NCBI GenBank assembly: GCA_002245135.1
Contig: NGBS01000597.1
Coordinates: forward strand, 62,001 to 126,000
DNA length: 64,000 nt
Source of the DNA: Proteromonas lacertae
Taxonomy: Eukaryota
Direction: 5' to 3'
This document shows, in pieces, positions 6,628 to 51,978 of this stretch. Positions within the stretch are counted from its first letter, which is position 1; the number at the start of each line of letters is the position of its first letter. The position numbers were made by a program, and so were the translations under genes. The notes under the pieces were generated by a model. That model was not told the DNA's origin. It saw nothing but the letters and a program-made list of their open reading frames with translations, and did not search any database.

Positions 6628-6807
6628 ATTTAAGATGTTTTTATTTTTCCTACTTCTACTAATGTTTAAAACTTATAACTAGTTGTATTACTTTATTATT
6701 TGTGATTTGTATAACACAACTACTGTCAATAAAAAAAATAAAGTGGAGGAATTGACATTACCATCTTTATTCTTTCATTATATTGTATATCCATATTAAT
6801 ATAAACA

Positions 6808-14761: not shown

Positions 14762-15929
14762 ATGAGAACACAAATATATCTCTTGGTATCATTATTATTT
14801 TGCGTTGCAATTTGTCAAGATGAAGTAGTTGAATATACTACACCAGTATTCATTCACGGTGAAGGAGGTTACCCATGTTTGAGAATCCCAGCCATTGTTC
14901 AAACAAAGAGTGGTAAATTATTAGCCTTTGCTGAATGCAGAACCTTCACTGGTGATGGATGTAATCCAACAAAGAAATATCAATACACCTCAAAAGAAGG
15001 TGTTGCTCCAAACGCATTGAAAGGGTATTTCCTATAATACATCTATCTATCTATTAAATAGACATATGTGTATGAAGACATCAACTGATTTAGGAAAGAC
15101 TTGGTCAAACCTTACATTCCCATTCGGTAAAGAAGCTTGGCAAGATGATCCAGAACCAGTATACGATGAAAATGCCAATGCAGTCATCTTCCCAATTATG
15201 CACGAAATCAACGGTAGAAGTGTAGTTTATCAACGTATCAGTTATGATGAAGGTGAAACATGGGTTGAAGAACAAGATTTAAGTCAATACTTAAAACCAA
15301 ATGAAGGAACATATCCAGGTCCAGGTGCTGGTGTAATGAAGGAATTTGAACCACACAAGGGTAGATTATTATTCATTGGTCATTGGGGTGCTTACCAAAA
15401 GGATATTGTCTGGTATAGTGATGATCATGGAAAGACATACAAGAGAGCTGAATATACCTTCCCAGGAATGGATGAAGCTATGTTAGTAGAATTATCCAAT
15501 GGTACAATGATGGCTAACTTAAGAAATAATAAGAAATGGGGTCCATACCGTGCTGTTTCAATTTCTAAGGATGGTGGTGAAACATGGACTGAAGTAAGAC
15601 CAGAGAAACAATTAATTGATCCAGTCTGTCAAGGATCTATTATCAGAAATGGTAAAAACTTATATTTCAGTAATGTTCACACTGAAAACTCAAGAACCAA
15701 CATGACTGTTATGTTCTCCAAGGATGATGGCGAAACATGGAAGAAATATGTTCAATTAACAAAGGATGAAAGTGCTTACAGTTGTTTAACCAGAGTAGGA
15801 AAGCAAGATCATATTGGTTTATTATATGAAAAGAAGTGGGAAAATTGCAATGGTCATGCATGTGCCATATTATTCGCTTACATCAAGACTGATGATAAAG
15901 TTAAAACTACACCAAATCTAAGAAAGTAG
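14762..15929 (+). CDS. Secreted GH33 sialidase (exo-alpha-sialidase)
   Basis: Signal peptide, LRIP motif, five Asp-boxes (STDLGKTW, SYDEGETW, SDDHGKTY, SKDGGETW, SKDDGETW), YPGPGAG, DEA, SAYS with the catalytic Tyr; one intron at about 15025-15061. Confidence 0.92.
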
Positions 15930-19000: not shown

Positions 19001-19118
19001 GAAAGGAAAGTCATTACTTCATCCTGAAGCTAAGAATTCAGTTTCTGGGAATATTAATTCTACTGCTACTCCTTTATCTTCGAATAGCAAAGGATTACAT
19101 GCTTTATTACCAAAATAA
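16041..19118 (+). CDS. RecQ family DNA helicase (BLM/SGS1-like) with RQC and HRDC domains
   Basis: MPTGGGKSLCYQLPA, DEAHCVSQWGHDFRPDY, ALTATAT, ATVAFGMGINKPDVR, YYQESGRAGRD, CRR...CDNC zinc site. Confidence 0.95.
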
Positions 19119-27334: not shown

Positions 27335-30300
27335 TTAATTTACACATCTGAATATTATAATTATCAATAATATCAAGTTGCAACATATAATGTAGTGAAT
27401 CATTTTTTCTGCTACATTTTCATCATAAAACAGTCTAGCCATTATTCTTGTTGAAATAGATGAGTTAATATAATAATCTGATGTCATTACTACAGTTTTT
27501 TTAATGGATTTTTTCAACAAATTCACAATATCGCTATGTTGTCTAGCAGTAGCAATTGCTAAAGCTGTAAAACCACTTAAATCCTTCGAATCAGGAGAAC
27601 AACCGATATTCAACAAATATTTCACGATATCAGCATATCCTTCTTGTGAAGCAATAATTATTGGTCTATTATTTGAATTTCCATCTTTTGATATTCCTGA
27701 TTCAATTAATGCTTTTACTACATTCAAATGACCTACATAACAAGAAATTGAGAGAGGATCTGTACCACTACTACTTTCTATAGGATTTTTATTGTAATAA
27801 TAAGGTAAAATAACTTTCACAATCTCCGAAAATCCATATGAAGCAGCAATCCATAATGGAGTAGAATTAGTCTTTTCATTACAAATAATATCAGGAGAAG
27901 CACCTCTTCTAATCAAAAACTTTATAATTTCCAAATGACCTTTCTTTGAAGCTAAACATATGGGAGATGGCGGAATACTTAATGAAGCACCATATTCAAG
28001 CAATGTTTTAATAATATTAACATGTCCATACAATGCAGCTAAATGTAATGCAGTATAATTGTCTTTAGTAAGGATAGTATCTACATTTATATTCTGCAAT
28101 ATTTGTTCCAAAAAAAAGTCATATCCATTTTCACAGGATTGTTTTAATAGTTTGATTGATTGGTGAGATATTGTACTATCCACTTGTTTAGACCAGTAAC
28201 TATGTCTCCATCTAATTAAGAATTCGTGTAGTATTGGATAGAATGTTGTGGAAATATTCATTTTAAATAAATAGGCTGTTAATGAATGTTCATCTAATTT
28301 TGGATCTATTTTTGAATAAATAAATAAATAAATAAATAAAATATACCTTCACCTTTAACAAAATACTTTCTCATTAATATATTACAATTACCTCCTACTT
28401 TATATAACAACGATACAGTGTGTAAATTCTCATTCACTATCGCATAATCCATTGCAGTTAATCCATATTCATCAACTTCATTTATTTTTACACCTCTTAA
28501 TAATAACAAGTCAACGATTATTCGCGAATGCTTTCTACTGGATGATGCATAATGTAATGAATTCTTACCATCATTACTCTTATAATTAACATTTGCACCT
28601 TTTTCTATTAGTGATAGTGTTATTTCATAATAACCTGAGAGTGATGATATATGAAGTGGATATTGATGACATGGACCTTCAGTAGATAAACCATGATTGA
28701 GTAATATATCAACAATCTATATATACAATTAAATAACAAAGAAATATATATTTATATATACTTGAGTATATTGATTCATTAATGGAAAACACAAAATACT
28801 TTCATATGAAGGAAGTGGAAAAATCATCGGATTTCTTTCAAATAATTTCTCCACTACTTTTACTTGATTTAATCGTATTGCATCTAACAATGGATATGAT
28901 AAGTTATTATATAATTGAGTATTTATATTGGTTAGTTTATTCTCAATTAATAACAAGGATATATCTTCATATCCATAAATGATAGATTTATGAAGTGGTG
29001 AAAAACCTTCTTGGTTTACTGTATTAATTTGAATAATTCTATTTATTAAATATCTACTCATATCATAATTATGATTTTGAATTGCGATAAATAAGATAAA
29101 ATCATTTTCATCAATACATGGAATCTAATAAAAAAGATAAATAATAAATGAAAATTAACTATACATCTATATATCCTTGATAATTATCGAAATACTCCAA
29201 CAAATCTTGCGAAGTTCCATTAATTGCAGCTCTACATAAACATTTTTGGATTGGTGCACCATTTTCAATTAAAATTTTAATGGTTTCTTTATGTTTGTAT
29301 GTACAAGCCATTAATAAAGCTGAATCTAATAACATTGGGTAATTGGTAAATAAAGGCACTAAATATTTAACTGTTTCTATATATCCATATCTTGCAGCTA
29401 CTTCTAATACATTTTTTTCACTATTATTCTTTGGAATATAGTCAACACCTTTCTGAATTAGTAATTTGATAATTTGTATATAATTATTCTTAATTGCATA
29501 TTCTAAGGCAGTTTTATCTATTTTCATAATAATATTCAAACATAATATTTATACTTCTATTATCTCTTTGATTTAAAGTGTTTAAATCCATTGTATCTAC
29601 TAGAATAAGTGCAACATCAAGATGTCTTTCTCTCCTATATAAATATATAAATAAACATTATATTATATATATATACAATGCAATATGTAATGGAGAAATT
29701 GACAATTTATGTGAAATATTAGGATTTGCTTTTAAATGCAATAACACCAACAACATCACTTTATCGCCTTTACTTGCACTTTGCCATACAGATGTTCTAC
29801 CATCGTTGTCTTGTATATTTATATCCGCTCCATTATCACAGAGTAACTTTACTATTTTGGTATAACCTTGTTGACTTGCTATAAATAGAGCAGATGTACC
29901 TGTATTATCTTTACTATTAACATTTATCCCTAATTAATAGAAATTATGGTTAATTATACTGATTTTTAGTAATTCTAATACTATATCATATGACCCTGAA
30001 TATGCTGCTGTCATTAGACATGTTACATTATCTTCTCCTATACAATCGTTCTTTACACTATATTTCAATAAAGCTTTTACTATTTCTACTTTTTTTGTTA
30101 ATGTTGACATCCATAACACTGTACAGTTGTTTTTATCTACTGAATGAGGGTTTGCACCACTGTCTAGCAAGAAAATGAACATTTCAGTATTGAGATTTTG
30201 ACTATTAGAGAATATAATCCAATAAAATACACTGCATTAAACAATAATAGAGAATTACCATCTTCATTATTCACATTAGCCTTGTTTTCAACCAAATACT

Positions 30301-30643
30301 TAACAATTTGTAGTTGATTTTTCTATTTACATTTATTTAATATACATAATACGTGAGATGCAATTTCTAATGGAGTAATGCCATTTTTATTTGGTATATT
30401 AGGATTAAAACCATGTGAAATAAACACTTTCAAAGTATCAAATAAATTCATCTTAATTGCATTACATAGTAAGGTCTCACCATTGATATCGTATTTGTCG
30501 TCAAGTTTGACGCTATCAACTGATTTTAGATATTTTTCTACTTCTGATGGCTTTGAAATAATTTTTAGTATAGATTCAAATGTATTATCACTCTGACAAC
30601 TCACTACAACGATAGAAATTAGAAAAATAAACTCAAGCCACAT
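27335..30643 (-). CDS. Long ankyrin-repeat protein with N-terminal signal peptide and C-terminal hydrophobic segment
   Basis: MWLEFIFLISIVVVSC; many TPL/TAL..A...GH..IVK.LL..GA repeats across about 10 exons; C-terminal YIICCNLILLIIIIF; a further small exon to about 27250 is possible. Confidence 0.8.
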
Positions 30644-31171
30644 TTTCAAGCTTGATTCTTATATTTCATTTTATGATGAAAGATATAATTTAAAAACAAG
30701 CGTAACAAATAATAAATAAGAAACCTTACTATTATTTTAAAAGAATAAGTTAAAAATAATAAAAATTCACAAATATTCTATAACATATTAGTTATTTTCC
30801 ACAATTATGCAATAAAGCAATTTTATAAAATAATGTTTTTGAATCATTGTAAACCTTTCTCATATGTTGAAAAATATGTTTTCTTATATTTAAAGCCAAT
30901 AATTCTCCTCAATAATGCATTAAATAATATCAATTTTCGAACACACATATTTAGCACAAATACCAGTGAATTACTCACAAAATTGTGAAAAGAAATTCTA
31001 TTTCAAATTTAAGCACCACAACATAAATTCCACCATAGTAAAAGCAAAAAAAATATATTGTAGTATAAAACACCTAATAAACAATCAGTAAAACAAAAAA
31101 GAAAAATCGGATTTTGAAAGAGGGTTTTTAAACCAAAATTTTGAGAGTGTGACATACGTTATTTTATTAAA

Positions 31172-34100
31172 ATGATGAGTTTAAAAGAAGTGCTTCTGAT
31201 TATACTAGTAATGATACAATTCTCATCAGAAAGTTCAATTGCCGCAAAGAAAATGTGTTTTGCTTTTGAAGATGATGAAGTTGCTGATGTATTAATAGAT
31301 ATAACTGAAGCATTATTCAACTCAACAAATGTAATAAATGATAATGATATGGAATATGTGAAGTTTGATACTTCAATAGATCAAAATACAGTAGATACTT
31401 ATAAAAAATTGGGTGAAACAGGTAAATGTGGTATAGTATTTACAAAACTTAAAGGAATAAGAAATAATTTATCAGCAATAGTTGAAGTTAACAATATGAT
31501 GAATTATTATAATATGTATACTATTAGTAGTGTTCTTGGGACAATACCAATATGCTTTAACCGTGTTATAAGAGGATATCTAACTTGTGATTCATCTTTT
31601 CAGTGTATGATTTATAAGATTTCTATTTATATATATATTTTAAATAGATATGAATTATTATTGGAAAAATAACACCAATTTTGTACTAATATATTCAGAT
31701 AAAAGTGATATGAAAGGTTGTGTAAGTAGTTATACTGAATACTTCAAAGGTAATGAAATGAATATCACACGAATAATAAAATATGATACTGCAACAACAC
31801 CTCCTTTATATGAAAAAGTATTAGCTGAATTTAAAGATAAGAAAGCAATAGTGATTAACTTTTTACCAGCAGATGAAACAGAACCTGTTGCTTTGTATAT
31901 ATCCACAAATACTCTAAATATTACAATGATTTCATTTCAAGAAATCTCAAAAGCAGATTTACCAAAATTTCCAACAACAAGAGATACCACTGATAATAAA
32001 TATTCATTTTATGTAGCATCTCAAATTATATCATTGGATATAGAAAAAGATGAAGCATTTAAGAATGCTTATTTATATGTAAGAGATTATAAACCAACTT
32101 TAGATCCTTCTACCACTGATACTGCAGCTACTACTACTGCTCCACCCAATCCACCAACTACTCCTCCTCCAGTTAATATTGCTGATTTTACAACAGAAAT
32201 GAAACTATAGTATATTTATTTATTTTGTATATATATATATATAGTTATGAGTTATTATCATTATATTTGAATGAAGTAAAGACAAAAAAGATTGTAACAC
32301 CTGAAATGGTTATTAATAGCTTATATAATGAATTAAGAACAATTAATGAGGTTAGTTACAGTTTATTGTCTAATAATGTTCTAGTTGGTTCAGTAGATGG
32401 TTATGAAATTGTTGTAGATGCTGGTAAAAATGTCTTAGCTAATGAACCATTTAGAGTTGTTCCAATCAGTTTTGATATTCAAGAAAAAGAGTTAAACGGC
32501 AAACCAATAGAAAATCTCTGTGATTTTTCAATTTCTGAAACTAATTTTAAATCAACTTATCAATATATTATAACTGTAAGTTATTATTCAGGTGCTTTAA
32601 AAGTATTAATTGAAGGAATTGAGGATACATTAGAAGTTGCTTTGGATAGAATCAATGAAGAAGAAGAGATATTGGGAAAGAAAACTCTCTCAATTACTAT
32701 TGATGCTTCAAGTGGTGTTGAAAATGTATTGAATGAAATAAAAAAATACTATGAAAAATTTGATATTCTAGCCGTTTTATATTATGGTTTAGATGATGTA
32801 TTAAATGCAATGATAAAAGCTTGGACTTATGATATTCCCATTATAAATTACAGTATAACAGCAGGAGAACATTGTAATAGTAAAGTATTAGAAATGGGTG
32901 TAAATATCCAAACATTATGGAGAGCAACAACTGAATTATTTGATATTGACACCATGATGATTGTATATAGTGATAGTGATTATTCAAACACTGCTCGTGA
33001 TATTATAAGTGCAAATGCTGAGGAAATTGGTATATATTTAAAGGAAGATGCTTTTGTTGAAGAAAATACAGTGGAAGCTTCAAAGAACGCATGTGGTCAA
33101 ATTTATTCAAAATGTACAGATGGGTGTTATGTGATTAATATATTAGATAGAAGTTATTTTACAAATTTATTTACTGAATGTTATAATGATTATAATATTT
33201 CATCAACAAAATACCCAATAATATCATATGCTATTGATGAACAATTATTAAAATCAATTGATGCAAAAGCAGTAAATGGTCATTATGTAGTTGGATATTT
33301 CTTTGATTCAATGGAAACTGAAGTTGGAGAACAATTGAGAACTGCATTGAGGAATAGGAATTATTTTGGCAAAGTAACTTCAAATATGGCTATTTTATAT
33401 ACTACCACATTTGTTATTGCTAGAGCATTTAATAAAGCAAGAAGAAGTGATCAACTAAGAGCATTTTTGCTGTATATTTTCTATTATTTTTCTATTTACT
33501 TAGAGGTGCAAGAAATAGTTTTTATGATGGTCCAGGTGGTCATTGTTATGTTAGCCAATATGGATATGGAAGTTATTTATTTAATTCTGGATATATTAGT
33601 GATGGTAGTATAATTGAATTAGATAAATCAAAAGGCACACAAATTGCATCTGCTTTTAATGACCCTTCTGAATATTGTGATTGGGTAAATGGCAAATTAG
33701 ATCATTTACAAACAAAACAAGTGATATTTTTGTATGTAAGAAATGAAACAAATACTGAAAGAATTGATTATTATGAATATACAGCTAATCAAGTCGGAGG
33801 ATTTCTTAATTCAAAAGGTGGAATTGCTGGTTATATGTTGAAAGTTAAAGTTCCACCACTTCATTCAATTGAAGATTTAGTAAAATATATGAAAGGTGTA
33901 AATCCTATAAATGTTTTATGTTATGTTGGTACAACATCATATCTTTTTAATTTAAGATATTATTATTTTTATTAGTTATATATCTTTAATTACTGTTTAA
34001 TAAAGAAGAAAGAGAAGCAATTAAAACAATATTAGCTGAACAGGATAAATTATTATTCAGTATTCATGCAAGTGAAGGTGAAGAATGTGATAAACAAATC

Positions 34101-37100
34101 ATTCAAATTGCTAGAATTCCACATCAATATGTATTTTCTGTATTTGGTTATTTCACTGAAAGACAAAGCGTTTGTGCTATTATATCTGATAATTCAACGT
34201 ATTTTGTTATTATTTAATTTATTATAAATAGTACTAACGATGGAATTGCAAATTATTTATCCCAAGTGTCACATTCATTTGTTTCTTACAATTGCTATGT
34301 AATTAATTTTGAGAATTTTGAACGTTTGAAATATCAATTGAATTTAATGACTACATTTTCAAATTCTACAACTTTATATTCTTTAATGGGAAGTTTGACA
34401 AATGAAATGATTAATAATATTTATGATTGGGGTTTTTTACCTCCTGAAAAATATCCAATAGTTATATTAGATTTATTATATCCAGAGTATTATAGTTTTG
34501 AAAATAAAACTAAATATGAAGGTCATTATTATGTTTCATCTTATTCATTACAAAAGACAAATCAAGAGAATTTACAGATGAAGTCAGTTATTGAATTGTA
34601 TTATGGAAATTTGCCTCTACAAATGCATGAAGATTCTGTTGCTGCGTATATATATATTAATATTTTTTTTAGTTTTTCTGCTTTAACATTAGTTGCTTCA
34701 GCTATGGGAAACATTTTTATTGAATCATCAGCTGAATTAAGATATAAAATCTATAAAACATCAATCAATACTCCATATGGTGAAATATCAGTTTCTACAT
34801 CAAATTTGATGAAGTCTTATTTTACAATTCATAAATTCACAAATGAGACTGATATATTGTTAATATTACCTGAACATTCACTTGAAAGGTCACAATATTC
34901 TGCTTTTGTATATATATTTATATATTTATATTATAGTTGAATAATAATATAAACAATGTATGTGACTTTGATGAAGGTGTAAATGTCAATTATTATGAAA
35001 AAGAAGTATATAAATTCGCACTATGGTATGAAGATGAAGATGAAGCACTTTATTTTCTATTAAGAGAATATCAAGATATTACTAATGAAGAAGGTGGTTT
35101 TGGAGGTTTGAATTATGATTTAGTTAAAACATTTTGTAAGAATGATACAGAAATTGAAATGTCATTTAATCAGTCATATAGATTTATTATTAGTGGATGT
35201 AGTGATGAAGTTAATAACAAATATATTGGACGTTTAAATAAGACATTTATGTTTGTAATGAAAGATCAGCAAACTTCAGCTTGTAATGATTCAGCGTATA
35301 TATTTTATATGTTTTATACATTATTAATATTGAAATAGAATATATTTGGGTTTATCTCCTTATCAGCAAGCATATCCATTAATCAATTATATTTCGACTA
35401 TTTATCCACTTAAAGCTTTTGTAATAATGGATATTAGTTATAACAATTCAATATTCCATGATATTATTGTTGAATATTTACATGAAAGTGGTTTTGAAAC
35501 ACCAATTGATGTTTATGTAAATGAAAGTAGTACTGTAAAAGAAGTAGAAGAACAAGTATATGGAATATTATCAAGAGTATTAAGATACATGCCAGAAGGT
35601 GGTGTAATATTTAATTATTTAAATGAATATTCTGAAAGTGTATATACTGCTTTTCATGATATAATATGTTATTCTCAAAAATATGAAAATATAGATTGTA
35701 AAAATTCAAGTGTTTATACTGACAAATATGTTATTGTTACTGACAATAACGAAATGTTTGGTGAAGTAGAACCAAAATTAAGAATTGGTCATTTGTTGTT
35801 AGTTAGTAGTTATGTAAATACAGCACCATATATTGAACAATTGTGGATTGATTTATTTGGTAAAAATCAAATTCCAACTTCTATTGAAGCAAGAGGTGCT
35901 TTAGGTTATGAATTGATGAAAGACATTTTGAGTAATACATTAACAGATGATTATGATACAGTTAGAGATTATATGTTTAATAATAATATAGAAACATCAT
36001 TTGGTGAATTAGTAATAGATATAGATTTCCATTTACATGTGAAAATATCAATAATGACAAGTGATGAAAATGGTAATATAGTAGAAGTTAGTCAATTGTC
36101 AAGTTATTTCCCAGCTGAAACATATTTCTTAACATCTAATTCAAAAACTGAACAGTTTGTGTGTGATTTCAAAGATGCACAAGGCGAAACAATTCAAAAG
36201 ATATTTAATGTTGTTATATTTGGACCTTTATCAAATGCTGATGCTTACGTTGGAAATGAGATGATGTATTCATTCTTATCAAGCTTCGACTTGATTAATG
36301 AAAATGGAGGTATTCAAGAAAGATTTGTCAATCCATTAGTAATTGATTCTACGAATGATGAAATAGTTTATGATACTATAAGAAATATGAAGAGAATATA
36401 CCATACAAGAATAATATTTGGATGTTATGATTCATTTACTAGAAATGGAATTGCCAAAGATTTGCATGAAAATGGAGTTTTATTGTTTTATCCACATAAC
36501 TTTGAAGGCTTTGAATGTAAAGAGAATATTATATATTGTGGAATGCCTTTCTCACTTAGAATTGCTTATATTCCTTGGATATTATCGACATTTGATAAAG
36601 ATCGTATAGCTATATTATACACTGATAAAGTAACAGAAACAAAAATAATGCAGTATATAAAAAGTGAATTTAGTATTAGAGAAGTAACACCTATTGCAAT
36701 TATTGAAGTTTCAAACACTGATTATGATATGGAGAAAATATTGAAGTTATTACAGTCTAAAATGAGTAGTGGTGTAATTATATCTTTATTGACTGGAACT
36801 GCTAGATTTGAGTTGTTTAAAACAATGTTTGAATTAGAAATGACTTCTGATTCATATACAGTTGTTGCTGAAAAGGTGAGAAGAGTAGATATTGATGGTC
36901 CATATGGTAAATATATGGTAGGACATTATATTTGGGTTAGTTTCCATAAAGATTATTATCCATTAACAGATGTAAGAGAAATATTCAATAAAGAATATTC
37001 GTTTGCAATAAATACTACTCATGGTAGTGAAAATGCATTCTTTGCAGCAAAAATATTTGAGAATGCCTTTTCAAATATTCAATTCAATGATTCTGAAGGT

Positions 37101-40100
37101 TTAGAAGTTCCTTACACATTTGAAGAAGCTTTAGATGCAATTCATAATGCTATAATAGTAGAAGGAGGTATGAATGTGAAAGTTTTTACCAACAATTATA
37201 TGAGTTTTTCAATCAGTTTATGTAAAATATTAGAAAACAAAACAACTGGATATCTTGAAGCTAATGCAATATATGAGTATCATTCATCTGATGTTACTGC
37301 ACCAAATCCTTGGAAAACTAGTGATCCTAATTATCCTAGATTATCATGTAATTGGGATACAAAAGCAGCAATAAGAGGTGAACAATTACAGGAAGATAGT
37401 TACTTCATTGGTGCAATATTTTCAGTTAAAAACAACGAATCTCCTTTTGAAATGTATGGTTTGAATTTGTTAATTGCAATGACATCAAAGATTAATGATT
37501 TAGGTGGTGTAATTGGTAAAACATTGAATTTTAAAGTATATGATCCTTCAGCTTATGATAATGATTATGAAAAAATAGCAAAAATAGCAGCTGAAGATGA
37601 AGTATCAGTATTCTTTGGTTGTTATACATCTGAATGTCGTATTGCATTTGCTAAAGAATTTCAATCAATCAATAAGTATTTATTCTATCCACAAACATAT
37701 GAAGGTCAAGAATGTTATTCAAGTGTATACTATTTTGGAAGTATTGCAAATCAATTATTTGACCAATTAGTACCATATTTAAGAGTTGTATCTAATTATA
37801 ATGAGGTATTGTTGATTGGATCATCCGATTTTGAACCTGAATATACAAATACCTTATTTGATGTAGTGAAATTTAAACTGGAAGATATAATGGATAAAAA
37901 AGGTGAATATAGAATAGACAGTAAGAGTGGAAGTGCAAGAGCAATTGTATCTACTGTATTAGATGATTTACCAAATGGTGGTATTATTATTTCAACATTG
38001 ATTGGTGATCCACTAAATGAATTTTTGGTTGCATTGAATGAGAAGATTGTAACAAGACATCAATTACAAGTTATTTGTATTGGTCCAGATAGAGAAATAT
38101 TGGATTATGCAATAAATGATTATATTGATGTTTATGAACCAAGTTATTATTTCGATGAAGTAAATGAAACAAATGCATTCCGTTTAGCTTCTATGGAATA
38201 TACAATAAAAGAAATAAATTCAGCATATGAAAGTTCAGTTTATGCAGGAATGAGATTTTGGTATAGAGCTGTTTTAAAAGCGAATAGTTTAGAAATTGAA
38301 GATTGGAGAAAAGCAATAATGGGAATGGAATATGAGACTGGATCTGGTATATTGAAAATGAACAAAAATCAATATGTATCATTACCATTCTATTTAGGAC
38401 AAGTTAATACAACAAGCAGAAGGTTTGATATAGCATTTGAACAGGATATAGTAATCGAGCCAATGGCTTGGAATTGGGATATTGTTGAAACACATGGTAA
38501 AGTATGTGATCATACAATTGGTAAAAGTAAATACGATATTGATATAATAAATATACTGTTTGGTATATCATTAACAGGCATTCAACAATCAATGGATACT
38601 GGATTATCTAATGTAATGAATATGTTAGTGGATGAGTTTAACAATCTAGGAGGAATTATAGATCATAGATTGTATGTAACTGATATTGATATAGGTAGTG
38701 ATGATACAGAATGTTCAACTGTATTTTTTAAGAATTTCGCTAATGATGTAGATGATACAATCAATTTAATTATTACTACAGCAAGTATTGAATGTATGAC
38801 AATGATATTAGATGAAGTAGTAAAAAGAGATATTCCAATTATACATATTGGTATGTCACCTGGTGAATCATGTGAGAATAATATCATCTATGCCAATAAA
38901 GAGCCAAGTATTGTAGAAAGAGTAGTTAGCATATTGAATGATGTAACTGATGAAAGTACATTAGCTTATGCAATATTATCAACTTATGATGAATCTAGTT
39001 CAAGAGCCAATCAATATGCTCAAAAAGTAGTTAAGAATTTAGGTGGAACAATTGTTCTTGCAAAGACATTTACATCAACCATATCACAGCAAGAAGTTGA
39101 TTTAATAATGAAAACTATAAGTGAAAGATCAACAGGTTGTTTTGTTTTATTGTTTGGTAGTGATAATTTACATAAATATGTTGATAAATCATATACTAAT
39201 ATCAATATAAATGCTGAAAAATATAAGATAATATCTTATTCCACAGGTGAATCAATGAATAGTCCAAATTATCAGCCATTCTATTCCATACAATCATATT
39301 TCCAATCTATAGAAGGTGAATCAAATGAAATATTTGTTAATAGAATATCTAAATATACTAAGAATCCAATAACTGAAAGAATGTCAAGTTTATATGCAGT
39401 TTTCCATTTATGGGCAGATGCAGTAAAGAAGGTGAATAGTGTAGATTATTCAAAATATCAACAAGCATTATACACTGTTAATTTTGATGCACCAGAAGGA
39501 AATGTGAAAATTGAGACGAATAACTATATGAATCATTATATTCGATTTGGTTATCATAGAAAAGGAAATAATGACTTTGATAAAGTGTATGAAAGTTCAT
39601 TACCAGTATCATCTAATCCTTGGAAAACTGAAATGAATGATGGTTATTATATATGTGATTTCTCAAGTTCAACAATTGGCAGATATGCAAGACAATCAAC
39701 CGTTTCAATTGGTGTATTAACCAGTTTTAGTGGTTCATTAGCAAGTACTGATAGAATTATATTGAATGGTCTTAAAGCTGCAGTAACTGAGTTAAATAAT
39801 AATGGTGGTGTATTGGATAGAATGGTATTAATGCAAATTCGTGATTGTAAATCTTTATTACAGAATTATATAGCTTATGCAACAGAATTAGGAAAATTAT
39901 CTGAAATTGTGGCTATATTTGGTGGTTCAAGATATTCACAACAGTTAGCTGTATCTGAAATTGCCATTAAATATAATATTTTATATTTCTATCCAGCAAT
40001 GTCAGGTGGTGAATTCTGTTCAGCAAATACATTCTCATTTGGTATTGTCGGAAGTCAAATGATTTCAGTTATAAAGAAATATGTAACAATGAAAGTTAAT

Positions 40101-43100
40101 ACATTCATTGAAGTATATGATACAACCGATTTTTCAATTAACATTACAAAAGCATTAGAAAGATATGGAGATGAAATAAAAATTGCTTCTTATCCAGTAT
40201 CTTATCTCAATTTGACTGATATATTATCAATACCAGAAAGTATAAGAAAGAAAAGTGCAATTATTGTGTTTGTTTCAATTGATTTTATCCCTATAACTGT
40301 TAATACATTATGTGAGCTTGGCATTTATCCTGATGCTGGTTATAGTATATTTGCTGTAACAATGGAACAACTGCATGCCAAATCAATTCCACCAAAATGT
40401 TTAAGTAATTATAGAATGTTAGCAACATTTACAAATGATATGGGATTAACTACATCAGATGATGTTACAAAACAAGATTCAGCAGTGACATTTGTTACTG
40501 CAATGAATGATTTGTATGGTGAAGGTTCTTGGTTTACACAACACTTAGAATCAGCATATACAAGTGTGAAAGTATGGTCTGAAGCAGCAAAAACATCATT
40601 TTCATTTGATACTGACAAAATTAAAACTGCACTTTATGGTTTATCAACCACTACTCCAGCTGGTTTATTAGTTGTTAATCCAAATGGCTTTTCAAATCGT
40701 GTAATTTATGGATTTCAAGTTGATGGAACTGGAAAAACAAAAGTGACTAGTTATTCTCCTCAACCAGAAACAGCTGATGCTTATAATCAATTGATTGAAG
40801 GAAATGAAGAATATGTTTGTGATTTTACTGATAAAGGTGTGAGATTCAAATATGATTCAGTAAAAATAGCATTATTCCATGATGCATCTAGTACAGCTCA
40901 TGATAGAGAAATGAGAATATTGACTTTAGAAGAGTATTTAATTAATGATATTAATAATAATAAAATCAATGGTTATTATATTCAACCAATCATTATATTT
41001 GGTACAACAGCTCAAGATTTTATTAATGAAATTCACAAGATTGAAAATGATACAAATATTATATTATATATGGGATGTAGAGGAGATCCATGTAGAGAGA
41101 CAGTATTAGCTGAAGCAGAAAGATTGAACATGTTCTTTATTTATACAGGTATTTCGGAAGGTTATATGTCAAGTAAGAATATGTTAGTTACTGGTAACAC
41201 AGCTTATCAAAAGATTCGTGCTTCTATAACGTATATGTTAAGTCAAGGAGTAGAAAACTTCTTATTGATTTTATCTGATGATCCAAAGATGAAGAAGTAT
41301 TTGACAACTGCCCAGTATGTATTAAAAGTTGAAGAAAAATACAGTAAAGTGAATTATATAACTGTTGAGTCAAATAGAACAGATACAAGTTATTATACTT
41401 CAATAGCATCTCAAATATCTAGTTCGAAAATAATAAATGGAAGATTATGTTGTATATTTATTTATTTATTTATTATGTTAAATAGTATTATATTTCTTGG
41501 ATGGTACATCTTCAAGAATGACATTACAAGCAATGAAAGATTATGGAATTAATTTCCATGAGATTATAGCTATTCTAATTAGATATACAAGATCAGATTA
41601 TAGTGATGGTTTCTTAACTGGAATGCCTGGAAGTTTAATAACTGTCAGTTATTCATCGTCTTTAACAACATCTTTATCTGAAGCGTTTGTAAGTGATGTG
41701 CAAGAGAATTTAGGAAATACAGCAGAGACTTTGCAAGAAATGGAATATATAAAAGTTGGTTTTGATATATGGAAATCTGCAATGATTCAAGCAGCTGAAG
41801 ATAGTGGAAATAAAATTCCACCAATTGAATATCTTAGATCTTGTATAATTGGTCAAGATGTAAAAGCACCAAGTGGTTCTGTATATGTTGAAGAGAATTT
41901 GCATTTACAGAGAAATATATTTATAATGGAAGGAAATGCAAATGGTGATTATTTACAAGTATATCCTGATACAGGACAAAGTATATTGATTGAACCAAGA
42001 CCATATCCAGAAGGTTTACCTGAATCTGCTAGATATGGTAAAAGTAAAGGCTTATTTGAATATAGCACTTCAATTGTAGCAGTTTGTTATTTGATGATGG
42101 GTATTGGTATTATATTTTCACTATTTGCATTGATATTCACAATTGTCAAACAGAAAAAACAAGTTATTCGTGCATTTGGAAGACCTTATTCTTACACATT
42201 AGCATTTCACTTGTTATTCTCATCATTTTCTGTTTTGACATATATTATTCCACCAAGTGAAACTAATGGTATATGTAAAGCTCGTGTTGCTGTAGTAGGT
42301 ATTGCGTTTAAAGGTATTTTAGGTTTATTCTATGCAAAAGTAACAAAAATATATCAGAAATATGTCAGAACTCAAAAGATTATAGTAAAAGTATAAATAT
42401 ACATTATTTATTTATTTAATTATTATAGTCGCGTGTTACTACTGCTAGAATATTATTGTTTTATGTTGGTTTTATAGTTTTAGGATTACTAGTTGTTATG
42501 GTATGGTTCTTAGCTGATATTCCAGAATATGATCCAGTTGAAACTACAAAATATTCATCCTATTTTGTAGATGTTTCAATTCGCCAATGCACAGTTTCAA
42601 CTCCTCTATTGTATTTATTTATATTATATATTGTTTATTATTAAATTAGATCTGTTGAATTAGTGATTGATGGTTTGTTGTTGTTATTCCTTATTTACTT
42701 AACAGGAAAAACAAAGAATGCTGCAAATCAACAGAATGATAGTATTGGAATGTTTATTTCTACATTGATATTGACACTATTAGGAGGAGTTATGGTAGCT
42801 TTAGATTTCAGTGTTAGTAATGAACCTGATTCAATATTGCTGTTAAGAACATTAGGAACAGAATTGATTATTATTCTAATGGTATTGTTACAGTATGGTA
42901 TAAAGTTACTTAATTTGTATTTGGATGAAACAGCAAATCTTACAACTGAGTCTGGTAGTAAACATGTAGGAACAAATGGACATTTAGGAACTGGAACTGG
43001 AACAGGAATGCATACATCAACATCAATCAGTAAAATACCAAATTCAAGTTTATTATCACAATCTGCATTTTTATCTTCTAAGATGACTCATACTCATACA

Positions 43101-43133
43101 GCCAAAACTCTCAGAACACAACAGAAACATTAA
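31172..43133 (+). CDS. Giant class C (GABA-B/mGluR-like) GPCR with nine tandem UrtA/AmiC-type periplasmic-binding (Venus flytrap) domains
   Basis: Signal peptide; repeated IN..GG[IV].G, LFYP..YEG.EC and P.G.[VL] motifs; about 11 short introns join the ORFs in frame; 7TM with VIRA...C.AR...G.FYAKVTKIY and K.KNA....NDS motifs. Confidence 0.88.
33939..34000 (+). other. Probable U12-type AT-AA intron in the GPCR gene
   Basis: 5' ATATCTTT, branch TCTTTAAT at 33983-33990, ends TAA; join gives YVGTTSKEEREAI, aligning with FGCYTSECRIAF of repeat 6. Confidence 0.75.
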
Positions 43134-43257: not shown

Positions 43258-44591
43258 TTAATTCCTTGGTTTAGCAGCTAGAAGAGTATGTCTCCATCCA
43301 ACACTTATATCTTTAACAAACAAATTTTCGCATTCCTTCATAACAGTTGGTGGATTAATCCAATCCCACTTATACACAACACCTTCATCATCAATTCCAT
43401 AAAAGCAGTTATTCCCAGATATACTCTTTACTAAATTATGTTTATTTAATTCAACCATATTCACAGGCTTTGGTGTATTAACCATCCTAGTCAATCCATT
43501 ATTTTCTCTCAATTTCCCTTGTTTTATCAATTCTAAAGCAGTTAAAGCATCTCTTAATCCATACATATATAAATTCTGATGAATATCTTGCAAGATTGTA
43601 ATATACATATTACTGTGTATATGGATGATTCTTTGTTTCATATCTATTCTTCTTGGATACAACTGATCATCATATATTTTCTTTTTAAAATTAGGTTTTA
43701 AGGATTGAAATTTACCCCAAGTATATACTTTACCATTTCCAGTTAATCCTAAACCATTTGAAAATCCTAAAGATATATCCACAATTTTATCATTATTACT
43801 TCTCACAATACTAGTTAATTTATCACATTTTACTGGTTTTCTAATATTATCATTTTCTCCAATACCTAATTGACCTCTTGTACTTTTACCCCATCCATAA
43901 ATATTACCTGATTTAGTTAAACACATTACATGTTGAAAACCACAGATAACTTTAGTTACAATTTCATCATCTAATCCTACAACTCTTCCTATTGTAAAAA
44001 TATTATTCTTATCACTTCCTTGACCACATTGACCATATTCATTATCACCAAAACTGTACAATTTACCTGATTCTGTTAAGAAAAAGGTTAATGCCATTCC
44101 TGTTGTTATATCCACTATTTTTTCATTTTCAAATATGAATTCTTCTGGTAGTAGTATATCCACTGCTGATTTACCAAAGAATTTATTGAACCACTTTGCT
44201 AATCGATGACTTGCATCATTCCATCTGCCTATTTCAAGTATATTATGAACATCATGAGTTCTTCCGAATAAATATGGCTTATTAGATGTTGATAATACTG
44301 CAGAATGTCCCCATCCTGCTGATACTTTCATAACATCTACATCTTTCAATGCTTCTATTTTCTAAAAAACTGAAAAAAAAAGATACTTTTGGAATTGCAA
44401 GACTCTCAAAATCACCATGTCCTAAACAACCAATATATCCATCTCCAAATGAATAAGCTATAAAATTCGATAGAAGTTAACAAATACCTCTAAATCCATT
44501 CTCAACATTGCTAACTAAATGACTATATATATTTTATTATACATAAACGCTTATAAATGTATTTATTCACACTTATATTAATTCTATTCAT
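43258..44591 (-). CDS. RCC1-repeat protein, possibly mitochondrial (RCC1L-like)
   Basis: YSFGDGYIGCLGHG, VSAGWGHS, LYSFGDNEYGQCGQG, ICGFQHVMCL, YGWGKSTRGQLG, SVGWRHTL; basic N-terminus ending KRLFS. Confidence 0.85.
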
Positions 44592-46428: not shown

Positions 46429-49400
46429 ATGTTTAAGAGAGCTATATTACTCCTATGTATATATTATCATATATAAATTATTTTAGACATGCTCTTAAAT
46501 GTGTTAGGATCTAGTTATTACAGTAATGGACCATTTAAGTATTTAGCTCCACTTTCAATACAATATCCTCAAAAAGAATATACTTTATATATTTATGACA
46601 CAGTTTATCCCATAAAACCAATACTTAGCCAACCAGTATATAATTTCACAGTTGAACCATCTTTACCATCTGCAATTACACTTGACTCTGAGACTGGTGT
46701 TATTAGTGGGTATTGCTTAAAAATAATAAATCAAACCTACACAATTACAGCTCATTTAAGCAATGAAAAGAAAGCTTCCACAAAAATCTATTTCACAGTA
46801 TCAGCAAAACCTATATTATCTGAAAATAACCAGTTCAATTTCAGATTTGATGATGATCCAAATTGCCCAACAAATGGAAGAAAATATTATATTGGTTCAT
46901 TTCCATCAGTATATACAACTTCAGTAAACTATTATAATTCCCATTTTGTCATTCCCACAAAATCATTATCAGAAATAAATCCATTATTAACATTTAATTA
47001 TAAGAATGAAAATGTAAAATCAATTGATATTCAAATCAATTCAAATTCAATGTTAAAAGAGAAAAAAGTTGATAAAGAAAGTGAAAATGATGAAATTGTC
47101 ATGAACATTCCAATAGAATATATAACAAAGGGAAGAAATGAAATAACAATCATTATTAAGAAAATAAAGCCAAGTAATGATAATAACCTATTTACAGTTT
47201 CAATTAAATATAATATTGAAGATTATAAAAAAGCGATATTGGAACATCGAAGAAGAGTATTAGAAGATGAAAAAAAAATTATTGATTTTGGTGAATCACT
47301 TGAGTTATATGAATTTATATTAGGTATTAATTATGAATTACCATATAATTTAACTGATGGTAAAGATTATTGTGTTACATTCGTTGATAATAAAACATAT
47401 GTAGGTAAAGGAGGATTAAGTGAAAATGATCTTATCTATACATATGGTATTTCATTAGATACTGTAGCAAAGAAATTAGTAATAAAAGGTGTTAGTAGAA
47501 CTGAGGAGAATATAACAGTAGTTGTAGGTGTATATGAAAAGGGAGATAGAGATGCTTGTGGAAATATATTTCCAAGTAATTTTACTGATTTTAACGATAC
47601 AGAAAAATTAATTATTAAATTAAGATGTCCTCCTCCTTCTAATTTTCAGTTTATTCTTTCTGAAAGTACTAGTAAAGCATATGTTGGTGAGAAGTTTTCA
47701 TATATGGTAAATGTGTATTTCACAGGTGGTACAATAGAAAAATGTCCAAACAATATTTATGTTGCAGATGAAGATTCTTCATATTTTACTAATATGGGAT
47801 TAAATATAACAGGAGGAGGTCAGACTAAGAATTATCATTTGAAAGGAACTCCACAATATAGAGATATTAATTTCAATTTCACAGTTTATATGAAGAATGC
47901 AGATGATAAATCAAACGATTATTTTGTTAAATTCCCTATTTATTATAATAAACCAAAGAATTTGAAATATGAGACAGAACCTATAATTATGTGGTATCAT
48001 TATAACTATTCCAGTGAAAGTTCAAATATTACATTAAATGCAACTGTTGATATAAAAAGTGAACCAAAATATACAATAGTATATAATCAAGGTTTGTTGA
48101 ACAGTTATGGTATTTATATAAATGAAAGTACTGGTAGTTTGTATGGATATCCCAATAATAGGACTATGTTAGATTCTACAAAACAAGCAATTCAATTCGA
48201 AGTACAAGGTTCAAATGAAGGTGGTCAAACTACTCAACCATTTAATCTTCGTGTATTATATGGTCCACCAAATGGATTAGATATTGAACCGAAATATGTA
48301 TATATGGAATTAGAAGAAAATATTGATCGATTTCATATAGATTGTTATGATTGTTATATATTGAATTACACAAAAGATTTTTGTGGAGAAAATGTAAGTG
48401 TTGATTCAGGAATAGAATTTAATAATAGATCTAATAATGAAAATTCACTTAATCCTCTTTATATTGATCTGAGTGATTATAATAATATCAATACAAAAGA
48501 TAGAGAAGATAAATTATATTTGAATAATAATACAGATACATATTTGTTTGAAGGTGATGCAGTTAATAAAGGTGATTATACATATTGTATAAGAGCATGT
48601 AATGATCAAGGATGTAGTAATCCAGTTGAAATAGAAATAGAAATAATCTGTCCAATTGTAAAGAACTTTACTTATGAAGGTGGTTACAGTGAAACAGATG
48701 ATGTAATTAATTCTGATGAAAATGAAGATTATAGATTTGAGGATTATGCAGATATAGGTAAAGATTATAGTTACATATTCTTAAATGGAACTGATGTTCA
48801 ACCTAATTTTTCACCTAATCCGAATTTACATTTAAAAAAAAATACAATGAATCAATGTAATTATACATACACAATTGAAGATGAAGATATATTATCAGAT
48901 GTAGGTGTTGATTTTAATGAATTAGATGGTAAATTCTATGGAACTCCATACGATGTTACTAATATTACAGCATATAATATAACTGTATATAATGAAGTGG
49001 GAAATGAAACATTAGATCAAGAATATATTTGGGTTGTTTATCCAAAACCAGGAAAGATTTATTATAATATGTATAATGTATCAGTAAGAGTATATTTGGA
49101 TTGGTTAGATGTATATCCAATTAATGTAAATGATTATGTTACAGCATTTAGATTAGCTGGTGATGAAGCTGGAAGAATCAATTTCTTAAACGAGCATGCT
49201 TTAGATTATTCTACTAAAAGTGGTAGATTTTGGGGTTTAGCTAATTCATCATTTGGATGGGAAGAGTTTGGAGTATTTGGTAAGAATGATAGAGGAAATT
49301 CTACAAATGTAACTGTTATTTCTATAATGGCTTACTGTGTAGAAGCTCAGAATTTAACATACACTGATTTGAATAATTGTAAAATTAATAAAACAGATCC

Positions 49401-51978
49401 ATTTTGTTTTAGAGAAGGTTATTTAAAAGCATATGTTGGTGAATATATTGGTATTTATAAACCAACATTTTGGTGTTGTGATTATATGTATTTATATTGT
49501 GACAAAGAATTAGAACTGAGAAAGAGTGGTATATTCTTCAACAGATTAACAGGTGATTTTCAAGGAAATGTAACTCAACCTTTTCCTGAACAAGTTGTTC
49601 ATTTTTATGTGTTTAATAGTGTTGATTATGATAAAGCAACAGGAATATCTATTCCTTTTAATTTGACAGTTTATTTTACACATCCACCACCATCCAATCT
49701 AAGATATTCTCCAAATCCTGTTACTTTTTATGTGAATGTAACAATTAATCCAATGATTCCTACTATTGATGGTGTTGTTTATAATTATACTATTAGTAAA
49801 GAATTTGAAGAATTAGAAGGTTTAGAATTTGATAACAAAACTGGTATTATATCTGGAATTCCTGAAGAAGTAACAGATAAACCAATAATATTGAATATCA
49901 CAGCATGTAATGATGAAGGATGTGTTTATTTCGAATTGAATATAACAATTGATATTCTTAAAGAAAATACTATAATGTATTTACCAAAGAAATACATCTT
50001 CCCAATAAATGACTATTCAGAAATATCAAAACCATCCTATTATACGCAACAATCAACATTATTGAAATTTGAAATAAGTGATTATGATTATTTAACATCA
50101 ATTGGTTTTATATTCAATACAACAGATGGTTCAATTAAAGGAACACCAACCATATTGGTAGAAGAACATGAGTTTATTATCACTGGTTATTTTAACGATA
50201 GTGATAATCCAACAGATAGAATATCAATACAAGTGTATGATCCATATCAATTCCCAATATATATACCAGAATCAGCTGTATTTGATGAAAATTCACTTCA
50301 TATTTGTTTGAATTATACTCATCCAAAAGGATTGCCTATTATATGTAGATTATATAATAATATTACCTTAACCAATGAATGGGAAACTGTTCCTCAATTT
50401 ATTGGCTTATTAGATGGTCAGTTTTATTCAATTATAATGAAGAATCATTCAATTTTATTAGATGAAAGTAGCAAATATTATTATCACGGATTAGTTCATA
50501 ATTTATTAGGTTCTACAATTAAAGATATTAATTTCATTATTGAAACAGGAGGTGATGAAAATGAAAGTGTTTATTTGACTGAAGAACAAACATTAGAAAC
50601 TACAGATGTTGGCTTTATATTTTCATATGCAAGTAAATCACATTTCTATAGTATTTTAGTAAAAGTGGAAGGTGATTTTTATACTAATTTGACTGTAGAG
50701 AATTATGCATTATTTGTAGCACACAGTTATTCATCTTCATTTGTTAAAGTGATGATAGAAAGTGAAGGTAATGTTACAATTAATAATCTTGGAAGTATAG
50801 GTATAATGCTTTGTAATGGTGAAAGTTTATCCATAAAGAATTCTTATATTCATATGAATATTGTAGAGTATAAAGATCCAGTTTATGCTGGTTTATTTGC
50901 TGGTGTTTGTACATTCTGTTCATTTTTAAATTCATTCAGTCATGTCCATACTTTTAATACTTATGTTATTTACTATGGTGATTTTTATATATCAGGATTT
51001 ATTGGTGTTTCAGATTCTTCTAATTTTACTAATATTATGACGACTGTTGGAGAGTTTAATATTCAAGATGATCTAAGATTTAATGGAAAAGTTGGTCTTG
51101 AAATGAGAAAAATGCAGAATCAAGTGATAAGTGAATTAGTTGGTCATTCTCAAAGTTCAAAATACCTTACATGTAATACATATTCTAAATATAATATAAT
51201 GAATACAGGCTTAAAGTTTGGAATTGGAATTGGTTCAGATGTTGCATTTAGAAATAATTCAATTGCTGAGAGTTATTTTACAGTTTATTATAAGGATTTA
51301 GATAAGTCAAACAATTTCAAAACATTACCAATGAGATCCAATATTACTAACACTATATTATATGTAAAACCTGATTTAGATGATTATTTTAATGATAATA
51401 AGGATGAAATAAAGGAAAATAATAAGCCAATCAGAGAAGATGTTTATATTTTGTATAATAATGGTGAAGAAGTAAATTTAACAAAATATGAAGGAGTAAA
51501 AAGTGTTAAATTTAATGAAAGTTTAGATTCAAAGTTATTCGATGGATTAGATTTCTCAATATTTGGTTATTGGTCATATGTAGTTCCATATGAAGTGATT
51601 AAATCATTAGAGGATATAACTAATCCACCAGAAGATAAAGGAGAATTGAAGTTTAAAAAGTCAGTATTTCAATCAAGATTACCAATTAGACTTGATAAAG
51701 GAAATAATACATTTGAATACTGGCCTGTTGCTGGTAATTGTTATATTGTGTTAGATGAATGTTGGGATGTTGAAACATGGGAAATTAAGACAAAGAACTT
51801 CCCTGTGTTGAATAGATTCAGAACAGATTATCATTATGAGAAACCATTTGAATCATTTGTTGATAAATACTCTACACAGTGTTTGCCAGAGTGTAGTAAG
51901 CAGCAGCAGTGTATTAATTATAAATGTGTTTGTATTAACGGAATGAAAGGTTTAGATTGTGATATACCATTTAATTAA
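46429..51978 (+). CDS. Large secreted He_PIG-repeat glycoprotein with a terminal EGF-like domain
   Basis: Signal MFKRAILLL/YMLLNVLG (one intron); repeated GL.FD..TG.I.G.P and AxNxxGC motifs; many N-x-S/T sequons; C-terminal C...C...C.C..G..G.DC. Confidence 0.8.

What the first reader, a model, noticed from the sequence alone, without database searches (positions are those of the whole stretch)
31172..43133. Class C GPCR with nine tandem bacterial UrtA/AmiC-like ligand-binding domains
Seen: the ORFs from 31172 to 43133 splice into one protein of roughly 3,800 aa. It has a signal peptide, nine repeats of about 380 aa (starting near 31250, 32560, 33718, 35012, 36207, 37404, 38550, 39705, 40863) and a 7TM domain (about 42070-42905). 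Repeats carry 'IN..GG[IV].G', 'FGCYTS..R' and 'LFYPQTYEGQEC..VYYFG..NQ'. Known: these match the urea/amide ABC-binding proteins UrtA/AmiC (type I periplasmic fold), and canonical class C GPCRs carry only one flytrap domain. Inference: a multi-ligand chemosensory antenna built by tandem duplication of a probably bacterial-derived module. Repeats 5, 6 and 8 look best conserved and repeats 1-4 are divergent, suggesting different specificities or a spacer role.
Basis: partly seen in the sequence, partly recalled or inferred. Interest (0 to 1): 0.9.

Follow-up and report, generated by a model that had tools for sequence, protein, structure and literature searches.

The report
Protist receptor with nine flytrap domains
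A predicted 12-exon gene of an AT-rich, likely single-celled eukaryote encodes a 3,848-residue receptor of the GABA-B/glutamate-receptor type whose outer part is nine stacked copies of a bacterial urea-binding protein; these nine copies lack the urea-gripping residues, but relatives with nine or ten copies keep them and are likely urea sensors.

Summary
Eleven short introns join 31172-43133 into one open frame of 3,848 aa: signal peptide, nine type I periplasmic-binding-protein repeats (repeat 1 degenerate but real), a class C 7TM and a Ser/Thr-rich tail. The repeats are nearest bacterial UrtA; the family 7TM is nearest GABA-B2. Unspliced homologs carry up to 10 such repeats plus 7tm_3 in one reading frame, two of them complete from signal peptide to tail; Capsaspora CAOG_05347 is a named member. 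So this is a family, not an oddity. Function is less settled. No window repeat keeps more than 1 of the 5 residues UrtA needs for urea; none of 74 repeats in AT-rich relatives keeps more than 2, whereas 21 of 25 distal repeats in four environmental relatives keep all 5. The membrane-proximal repeat is degenerate throughout, and repeats group by slot, not by protein. Best reading: a derived member of an originally multivalent urea-receptor family, with a coupling repeat at the membrane and a mostly structural array. One intron is a likely minor-spliceosome AT-AA intron. No RNA data, ligand, dimer or G-protein evidence; organism unidentified. PBP+7tm_3 fusions are catalogued; my searches found no description of tandem UrtA arrays.

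The parts
31172..43133 (+). whole predicted gene, 12 exons, 3,848 aa
   Evidence: stop-free spliced frame; homologs collinear
31172..31243 (+). likely signal peptide (aa 1-24)
   Evidence: hydrophobic stretch aa 7-25; no dedicated predictor run
31244..32539 (+). repeat 1, degenerate PBP domain with Thr/Pro-rich insert at 32100-32171; spans introns 31605-31647 and 32210-32244
   Evidence: 25.5 bits vs best shuffle 8.3; hhalign 353 columns, P 5e-5; both family cysteines kept; no Pfam hit
32543..33687 (+). repeat 2; intron 33472-33503
   Evidence: Peripla_BP_6 E 3.8e-19; 140 bits
33703..34972 (+). repeat 3; introns 33939-34000, 34199-34231, 34646-34672, 34908-34936
   Evidence: 135 bits; groups with the same slot of P0008 (98, long branches flagged)
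33939..34000 (+). likely U12-type AT-AA intron (5' ATATCTTT, branch-like TCTTTAAT 10 nt before the end)
   Evidence: ties for best of 452 frame-keeping splice options, 135.0 bits vs 123.6 for the best GT-AG option; unverified by RNA
34991..36173 (+). repeat 4; intron 35296-35338
   Evidence: 102 bits; Peripla_BP_5 E 6.6e-6 on its C-terminal part
36186..37358 (+). repeat 5 (slot m5): keeps S122, Y141, E146 equivalents; best candidate for a retained small-ligand site
   Evidence: Peripla_BP_5 E 5.3e-27; three pocket columns invariant in 7 of 7 close relatives
37383..38516 (+). repeat 6 (slot m4), most UrtA-like (27% identity)
   Evidence: Peripla_BP_5 E 1e-42; PDB UrtA E 6.9e-29
38529..39665 (+). 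repeat 7 (slot m3)
   Evidence: Peripla_BP_5 E 6.7e-31
39684..40829 (+). repeat 8 (slot m2)
   Evidence: Peripla_BP_6 E 8.3e-31
40842..42039 (+). repeat 9 (slot m1), membrane-proximal, likely coupling domain; intron 41452-41485
   Evidence: halves hit Peripla_BP_5 at 8e-12 and 2.7e-13; slot clade 100/100; runs into TM1 with no cysteine-rich domain
42061..42923 (+). class C 7TM domain; introns 42391-42428 and 42611-42649
   Evidence: 7tm_3; 32-40% identical to five closest homologs; homolog ORFs break off at the same two intron positions
42924..43133 (+). 69-aa cytoplasmic tail, 36% Ser+Thr, and stop codon

Best explanation
The predicted gene encodes a class C-type 7TM receptor whose ectodomain is nine UrtA-derived flytrap domains that lack the urea-binding residues, and it likely signals through its membrane-proximal repeat while most of the array likely serves as a fixed scaffold carrying one or a few re-tuned small-solute sites. 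Shown: architecture, UrtA ancestry of the fold, loss of the urea residues, slot-specific conservation, direct junction of repeat 9 to TM1. Inferred: (1) an ancestral eukaryote fused a cysteine-pair-type bacterial UrtA to a GABA-B-like 7TM and amplified it in tandem, giving a multivalent urea receptor still seen in the environmental relatives; (2) the repeat next to the membrane became a non-binding adaptor docked on the 7TM through a short strand beside the ECL2 hairpin; (3) in this AT-rich lineage each slot diverged and was then kept, repeats 5 and 6 being the best candidates for binding a small amide- or amine-like solute other than urea; (4) closure of a binding repeat would be passed along the disulfide-pinned chain, or across a dimer, to repeat 9 and the 7TM and on to a G protein.
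For: Same architecture as single unspliced ORFs: 19 of 20 homologs scanned carry Peripla_BP_5 plus 7tm_3; P0078 and P0079 run from an N-terminal hydrophobic leader through 9-10 repeats to 7TM and tail; P0008 covers seven repeats plus a whole 7TM. Urea residues W120, S122, Q144, Y190, N246 (PMC10392092): window repeats keep 0-1 of 5; 74 AT-rich repeats keep 0 (47), 1 (24) or 2 (3); 21 of 25 distal repeats of four environmental proteins keep 5 of 5; their 4 membrane-proximal repeats keep 0-1. Slots m1-m5 each form one side of a branch (100/100, 99/98, 100/99, 72/93, 76/93); 4 label changes by slot (the minimum) vs 43 by protein, 57 rows. Slot m5 has three invariant pocket columns in 7 of 7. AlphaFold model of homolog P0014 (pLDDT 84, pTM 0.72): UrtA fold (Z 41.1, 2.8 A over 373 residues), seven helices, a strand just before TM1 and an ECL2 hairpin; best whole-chain match GABA-B. 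Two cysteines co-occur in 130 and are both absent in 51 of 191 domains, 10 discordant.
Against: No ligand, expression or coupling data. Slot m5 pocket conservation (0.42 vs 0.30 overall) is not significant (9% of random column sets reach it). The close relatives compared are a mix of paralogs and orthologs, which would hide real but different pockets. The window's 7TM departs from class C consensus in ICL1 and TM7 (no proline in the recalled FxPK motif). The flytrap-to-7TM geometry of the model differs from GABA-B (whole-chain rmsd about 25 A). The model is of a homolog 25% identical in the 7TM, not of the window protein. The disulfide is inferred from co-occurrence among related sequences. 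Whether this organism has G proteins is unknown (no genome).
Confidence: 0.5

Rival explanations
1. The ectodomain binds no small ligand: it is a roughly 50-60 nm stalk (size inferred from about 6-7 nm per domain, own knowledge) for adhesion, protein binding or mechanical sensing, or the receptor is constitutive or a dimer partner like GABA-B2.
For: Pocket columns are at or below average conservation in slots m1-m4 (0.20-0.30 vs 0.26-0.34); a CxxxxC pair sits in the pocket loop of slot m1 (15 of 15) and m4 (10 of 12), which could lock it; 29 N-glycosylation sequons and a Thr/Pro-rich insert; nearest solved 7TM is GABA-B2.
Against: Slot m5 keeps S122/Y141/E146 in 7 of 7; strict slot identity over long divergence is more than a spacer needs; the ancestral-looking members have intact sites.
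Confidence: 0.25
2. One reading: most repeats are working sensors with different specificities, so the receptor integrates many solutes.
For: Fold intact in R2-R9; type I PBP pockets readily change specificity (established for the LivJ/AmiC/UrtA group); each slot is retained.
Against: No pocket constraint in 4 of 5 slots tested; repeat 1 is badly degenerate; no known way for eight distal domains to report separately through one proximal domain.
Confidence: 0.17
3. The window protein itself is a urea or amide receptor like UrtA/AmiC.
For: Best sequence and fold matches are UrtA and AmiC.
Against: Single alanine mutations at any of five positions cut or abolish urea binding in UrtA (PMC10392092) and every window repeat lacks at least four of them; TIGR03407 scores of five repeats are 50-134 bits against a cut-off of 493.
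Confidence: 0.04
4. The region is two or more genes, or a decayed gene: the 5' repeats are not joined to the 7TM.
For: No RNA evidence; intron 33939-34000 lacks a consensus GT donor; no homolog found covers repeats 1-2.
Against: All 11 junctions keep frame with 27-62 nt AT-rich introns (10% GC vs 28% in exons); even the GT-AG alternative keeps frame; a second AT-AC intron with the same donor completes a zinc finger elsewhere in the window; repeat boundaries fall inside exons; P0008 joins slots 7 to 1 and the 7TM in one ORF.
Confidence: 0.04

Closest known systems
GABA-B receptor (class C GPCR; GABBR2 nearest)
   Same: Class C 7TM (family profile E 2e-30); type I PBP domain joined to TM1 without a cysteine-rich domain; best whole-chain fold match.
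   Different: One flytrap per subunit vs nine; flytrap is ANF/LivJ-type vs UrtA-type (Z 41 to UrtA, about 32 to mGlu8/T1R flytraps); domain geometry differs; short Ser/Thr-rich tail.
Bacterial UrtA (TIGR03407; PDB 8HIC, 7S6E, 7S6F) and AmiC (1PEA)
   Same: Same fold and length; nearest sequences (E 7e-29); the cysteine pair is shared with 32 of 80 bacterial UrtA loci, mostly cyanobacterial-looking.
   Different: Single soluble ABC-transporter subunit (some cyanobacterial hits are N-terminal domains of longer proteins); window repeats 15-27% identical and lacking the urea residues.
Non-metazoan glutamate-family GPCRs with bacterial-type solute-binding domains (Dictyostelium Grl/BMP; fungal OpuAC, SBP_bac_1; '/Peripla_BP//7tm_3/' architecture)
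   Same: Bacterial-type binding domain fused to 7tm_3 is catalogued (PMC3251606 section 20; PMC3971589 supplementary figure text).
   Different: The passages seen give no UrtA assignment, no copy number, and ectodomains up to 1,667 aa; here 3,500 aa and nine copies.
Capsaspora owczarzaki CAOG_05347 (XP_004347032.2)
   Same: Several UrtA-like domains plus 7tm_3; shares the ECL2/TM7 pattern in the alignment.
   Different: About three domains, GC-rich, annotated only as hypothetical/family 3 GPCR; common descent with the window protein's 7TM was not tested against outgroups.
Tandem-flytrap sensors outside GPCRs (trypanosome receptor adenylate cyclases, Bordetella BvgS) - recalled, not tested
   Same: More than one flytrap in series ahead of a membrane segment.
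   Different: Two domains, single-pass, enzyme output.

Membership tests
Class C GPCR | 7tm_3 domain above the Pfam cut-off | tested here: met
   53.1 bits vs 33.5 on the TM1-3 exon; 18.4 bits on the TM5-7 exon; close single-ORF homologs P0008 82 bits, P0006 91 bits
Class C GPCR | Seven membrane helices with TM3-ECL2 cysteine pair | tested here: met
   Six hydrophobic segments above threshold in the window protein, TM2 below; gap-free alignment over all seven with both cysteines; seven helices in the homolog model
Class C GPCR | TM3 lysine / TM6 acidic residue (ionic lock; label recalled) | tested here: met
   K in AKVT and D in NDS align with the family columns and with GABA-B2 AKTW / NDS
Class C GPCR | TM7 FxPK motif (recalled) | tested here: not met
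   YGIK in the window protein and YGIK/YGFK in close homologs; FVPK kept in P0024, P0078, P0083
Class C GPCR (canonical mGluR/GABA-B architecture) | A single Venus flytrap per subunit, with or without NCD3G | tested here: not met
   Nine repeats, no NCD3G hit
Class C GPCR | Obligate dimer | not tested
Class C GPCR | G-protein activation | not testable with these tools
   No genome held; needs a signalling assay
UrtA urea-binding protein | Type I PBP fold nearest UrtA | tested here: met
   on window repeats; Z 41.1 on the homolog's proximal repeat
UrtA urea-binding protein | TIGR03407 curated cut-off | tested here: not met
   50-134 bits for 5 of 5 repeats scanned (R2, R5-R8) vs 492.75
UrtA urea-binding protein | W120, S122, Q144, Y190, N246 present | tested here: not met
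   0-1 of 5 in each of nine repeats
U12-type intron (33939-34000) | ATATCC/TT donor, branch site 10-20 nt upstream of a non-AG acceptor (consensus recalled), spliced in RNA | tested here: inconclusive
   Sequence fits and scores best of 452 options; no RNA to confirm

The most novel reading that the evidence does not exclude
An undescribed family of 'poly-UrtA' class C GPCRs exists across distant microbial eukaryotes: its ancestral form is a multivalent urea receptor (up to nine intact bacterial urea sites in series above a degenerate coupling domain), and the window gene is a derived member whose nine slots were re-assigned. It would be the first urea-sensing GPCR type and would require signal relay along a chain of flytraps, outside the one-flytrap-per-subunit model of class C activation.
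Probability: 0.45. Interest if true: 0.88.

Novelty: new variant of a known kind. Interest (0 to 1): 0.72.

Why it matters
Class C receptor activation is understood as closure of one flytrap per subunit in a dimer; natural receptors with nine or ten flytraps in series must use another relay or leave most domains idle, and either answer bears on how these receptors evolved from bacterial binding proteins. The family offers a rare, direct test: repeats 43-55% identical to UrtA with every urea residue intact give a predicted ligand for orphan protist GPCRs, and the AT-rich branch shows what happens after the ligand site is lost. The repeats trace to UrtA rather than to the animal flytrap, pointing to a separate recruitment of a bacterial module onto the class C 7TM.

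Tried and rejected
No whole genome held, so no paralog or G-protein search. No RNA holder listed; no evidence either way. Self-BLAST of the model shows only the diagonal; repeats are too diverged. Single-sequence AlphaFold of repeat 8 failed (pLDDT 41) and was not used. Repeat 6 found no prokaryotic locus by DNA pattern; two metagenome scans found none. Atlas search of the repeat 9/7TM piece gave leads only (best 0.88). Lineage: an NSA2 marker has 93-99% identical unnamed relatives and named ones only at 87% or less; its tree does not place the organism; Blastocystis-like traits (about 30-40 nt introns, U12-type introns, He_PIG and sialidase-like genes) are suggestive only, and the He_PIG link is recalled (0 hits in PMC5608401). 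GT-AG readings of intron 33939-34000 rank 246th or lower of 452. Donor lineage of the UrtA module not resolved: no outgroup, and bacterial rows were selected by a YPLQYE-type pattern. Three look-ups of earlier findings returned nothing. Paper searches with 0 hits.
Full report
Setting. The window is about 27% GC, gene-dense, with very short introns: a microbial eukaryote. No genome and no RNA run were available. A marker gene did not place it; resemblance to Blastocystis (short introns, U12-type introns, which PMC5608401 reports for that genus in passages seen) is a lead only.

Gene model. ATG 31172 to stop 43133 with 11 introns gives 3,848 aa without a stop. Ten introns are GT-AG, 27-43 nt, all starting GTAT. 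The one at 33939-34000 has an ATATCTTT donor, a branch-like TCTTTAAT and ends in AA. Among 452 frame-keeping splice options scored with a profile free of window repeats it ties for first (135.0 bits; best GT-AG option 123.6, rank 246), and it restores the same loop length as the matching repeat of P0008. A second intron with that donor and an AC end (4987-5045) completes a zinc finger in another gene. ORFs of relatives break off at the positions of introns 10 (P0002, P0005, P0009) and 11 (P0003, P0007).

Domains. Of 18 exon pieces, 9 hit Peripla_BP_5/6 and 2 hit 7tm_3. Repeats 2-9 score 102-260 bits with the independent profile; repeat 1 scores 25.5 (best of 500 shuffles 8.3), aligns end to end, has a Thr/Pro insert and keeps both family cysteines. 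Repeats are 9-18% identical to each other and 15-27% to a bacterial UrtA. Repeat 6 matches solved UrtA at E 7e-29 and AmiC at 2e-7; TIGR03407 is the best NCBIfam family for 5 of 5 repeats scanned but far below its cut-off. The window's own TM1-3 piece matches solved class C receptors only weakly (E 0.22); a 12-sequence family profile matches GABA-B2 at 2e-30, ahead of mGlu7. The TM3-ECL2 cysteines and the TM3 lysine/TM6 aspartate are kept; the TM7 proline and the ICL1 serines are not (motif labels recalled).

Family. The long exon found one homolog among 5,757 candidates, 39% identical over 97% and collinear. The repeat 9/7TM piece found 46 representatives; 19 of 20 family proteins scanned carry both Peripla_BP_5 and 7tm_3 in one ORF, with up to 9 repeats. 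A search with two P0024 repeats among proteins of 2,059-6,554 aa gave 7 hits of 1,767 candidates: P0024, P0078, P0079 (9-10 repeats plus 7tm_3; the last two complete from leader to tail), Capsaspora CAOG_05347, a Pfiesteria protein with 4 repeats and ephrin-like repeats but no 7tm_3, a TRP-like protein and a kinase. Apart from these two named proteins the members are unnamed Logan, ENA, JGI or NCBI records. By amino-acid composition they split into an AT-rich group around the window protein and a GC-richer environmental group; in a 20-row 7TM tree the two sides separate at 98/95, without outgroup.

Ligand site. PMC10392092 (parts 1-2 of 5 read) gives nine pocket residues of Prochlorococcus UrtA, five essential. 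I aligned 111 domains from 24 proteins (partial domains under 250 profile positions dropped; repeat 1 added by hand) with 22 of 80 bacterial UrtA loci. Window repeats keep 0-1 of the five; 74 AT-rich repeats keep at most 2; 21 of 25 distal repeats of the environmental proteins keep all five; their 4 membrane-proximal repeats keep 0-1; 22 of 22 bacterial rows keep five. The bacterial rows and P0078/P0079 were found through UrtA-like words, so their conservation is partly by selection; P0024 was found through the 7TM side. Pocket columns are conserved far above background in the environmental repeats (0.83 vs 0.41) but not in AT-rich slots m1-m4; slot m5 (repeat 5) is at 0.42 vs 0.30 (9% of random sets reach it) with three invariant columns.

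Evolution of the array. Counted from the membrane, slots 1-5 of ten AT-rich proteins each form one side of a branch (three starred, two at 72/93 and 76/93); 4 label changes by slot against 43 by protein (57 rows; same pattern in the 133-row fast tree; long-branch warnings apply). So the array predates the split of these proteins and is not homogenised. Environmental repeats are 43-55% identical to UrtA where the site is intact. A cysteine near the hinge and one in the C-terminal linker co-occur (130 both, 51 neither, 10 discordant of 191); repeat 9 of the window lost both. This suggests a disulfide pinning each linker and a donor among cysteine-pair UrtAs; related rows are not independent and the tree has no root.

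Structure. Repeat 8 alone did not fold. Homolog P0014 with a 48-row alignment gave pLDDT 84, pTM 0.72: a flytrap running by a short strand into TM1, seven helices and an ECL2 hairpin. Its flytrap matches UrtA (Z 41.1, 2.8 A, 373 residues), then AmiC (37.9), ahead of mGlu8 (31.8); the whole chain matches GABA-B best (E 1.8e-27) but with about 25 A rmsd, so domain geometry differs.

Mechanism. Shown: architecture, fold, loss of the urea site, slot conservation, direct repeat 9-TM1 junction. Inferred: ancestral multivalent urea receptor; proximal repeat as adaptor; in this lineage a mostly structural array with one or two re-tuned sites (repeats 5, 6); relay to a G protein (0.5). Rivals: no small ligand (0.25), many-ligand antenna (0.17), urea receptor (0.04), split gene (0.04).

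Known versus new. Bacterial-type binding domains on 7tm_3 are known: PMC3251606 (passages and section 20) lists ANF, BMP, OpuAC, SBP_bac_1 and others with ectodomains up to 1,667 aa; PMC3971589 (passages; supplementary figure text; file 1 not searched) lists '/Peripla_BP//7tm_3/' without copy number; bioRxiv 2025.04.15.649019 (passages and section 9; the one eLife supplement held had no hit) does not mention periplasmic or tandem domains. Ten searches turned up no description of tandem UrtA arrays on a GPCR; five returned nothing, the others were seen as listings apart from the papers named; PMC12129017 and PMC5447177 (passages) do not mention it. The library lacks most subscription papers.

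Verdict. Real feature; works like a class C receptor by sequence and fold, but fails the one-flytrap architecture and the UrtA urea-site tests. New variant of a known kind, interest 0.72.

Noticed in passing
window 4987-5045 (+): A second likely minor-spliceosome intron (ATATCTTT...AC, 59 nt) in a RAD18-like gene; removing it completes a C-x2-C-x3-N-x6-C-x2-C zinc finger.
   Followed up: partly
window about 53329 (-): Third U12-like donor (ATATCCTT) interrupting a reading frame; acceptor not resolved.
   Followed up: partly
window 6805-11805 and 46477-51978 (+): Two large, nearly intron-free surface-type proteins with He_PIG (putative Ig) domains; the first also PA14-like and with a C-terminal membrane segment.
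   Followed up: partly
window 15021-15929 (+): BNR/Asp-box protein resembling a bacterial-type sialidase (BNR_2 E 3.4e-22).
   Followed up: no
window 27335-30658 (-): Long ankyrin-repeat gene with a likely signal peptide, head-to-head with the receptor gene about 530 nt away.
   Followed up: no
window 16119-19118, 43258-44361, 55691-60679: RecQ helicase, RCC1-repeat and BEACH/WD40 genes; ordinary eukaryotic housekeeping.
   Followed up: no
P0080, P0082: UrtA-type domains with an intact urea site also occur in other likely eukaryotic membrane proteins: a Pfiesteria protein with ephrin-like repeats and an unnamed protein with a TRP-like domain.
   Followed up: no
L036, L044, L047, L048, L052, L054-L057, L063-L065, L067, L072-L074, L078, L079: 18 of 80 bacterial loci carry UrtA as the N-terminal domain of a longer protein (250-730 further residues), mostly cyanobacterial, possibly sensory proteins.
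   Followed up: no
P0078: Repeat identities hint at duplication of a three-repeat block (m10/m7, m9/m6, m8/m5/m3 slightly closer, 52-56%), a weak signal.
   Followed up: partly
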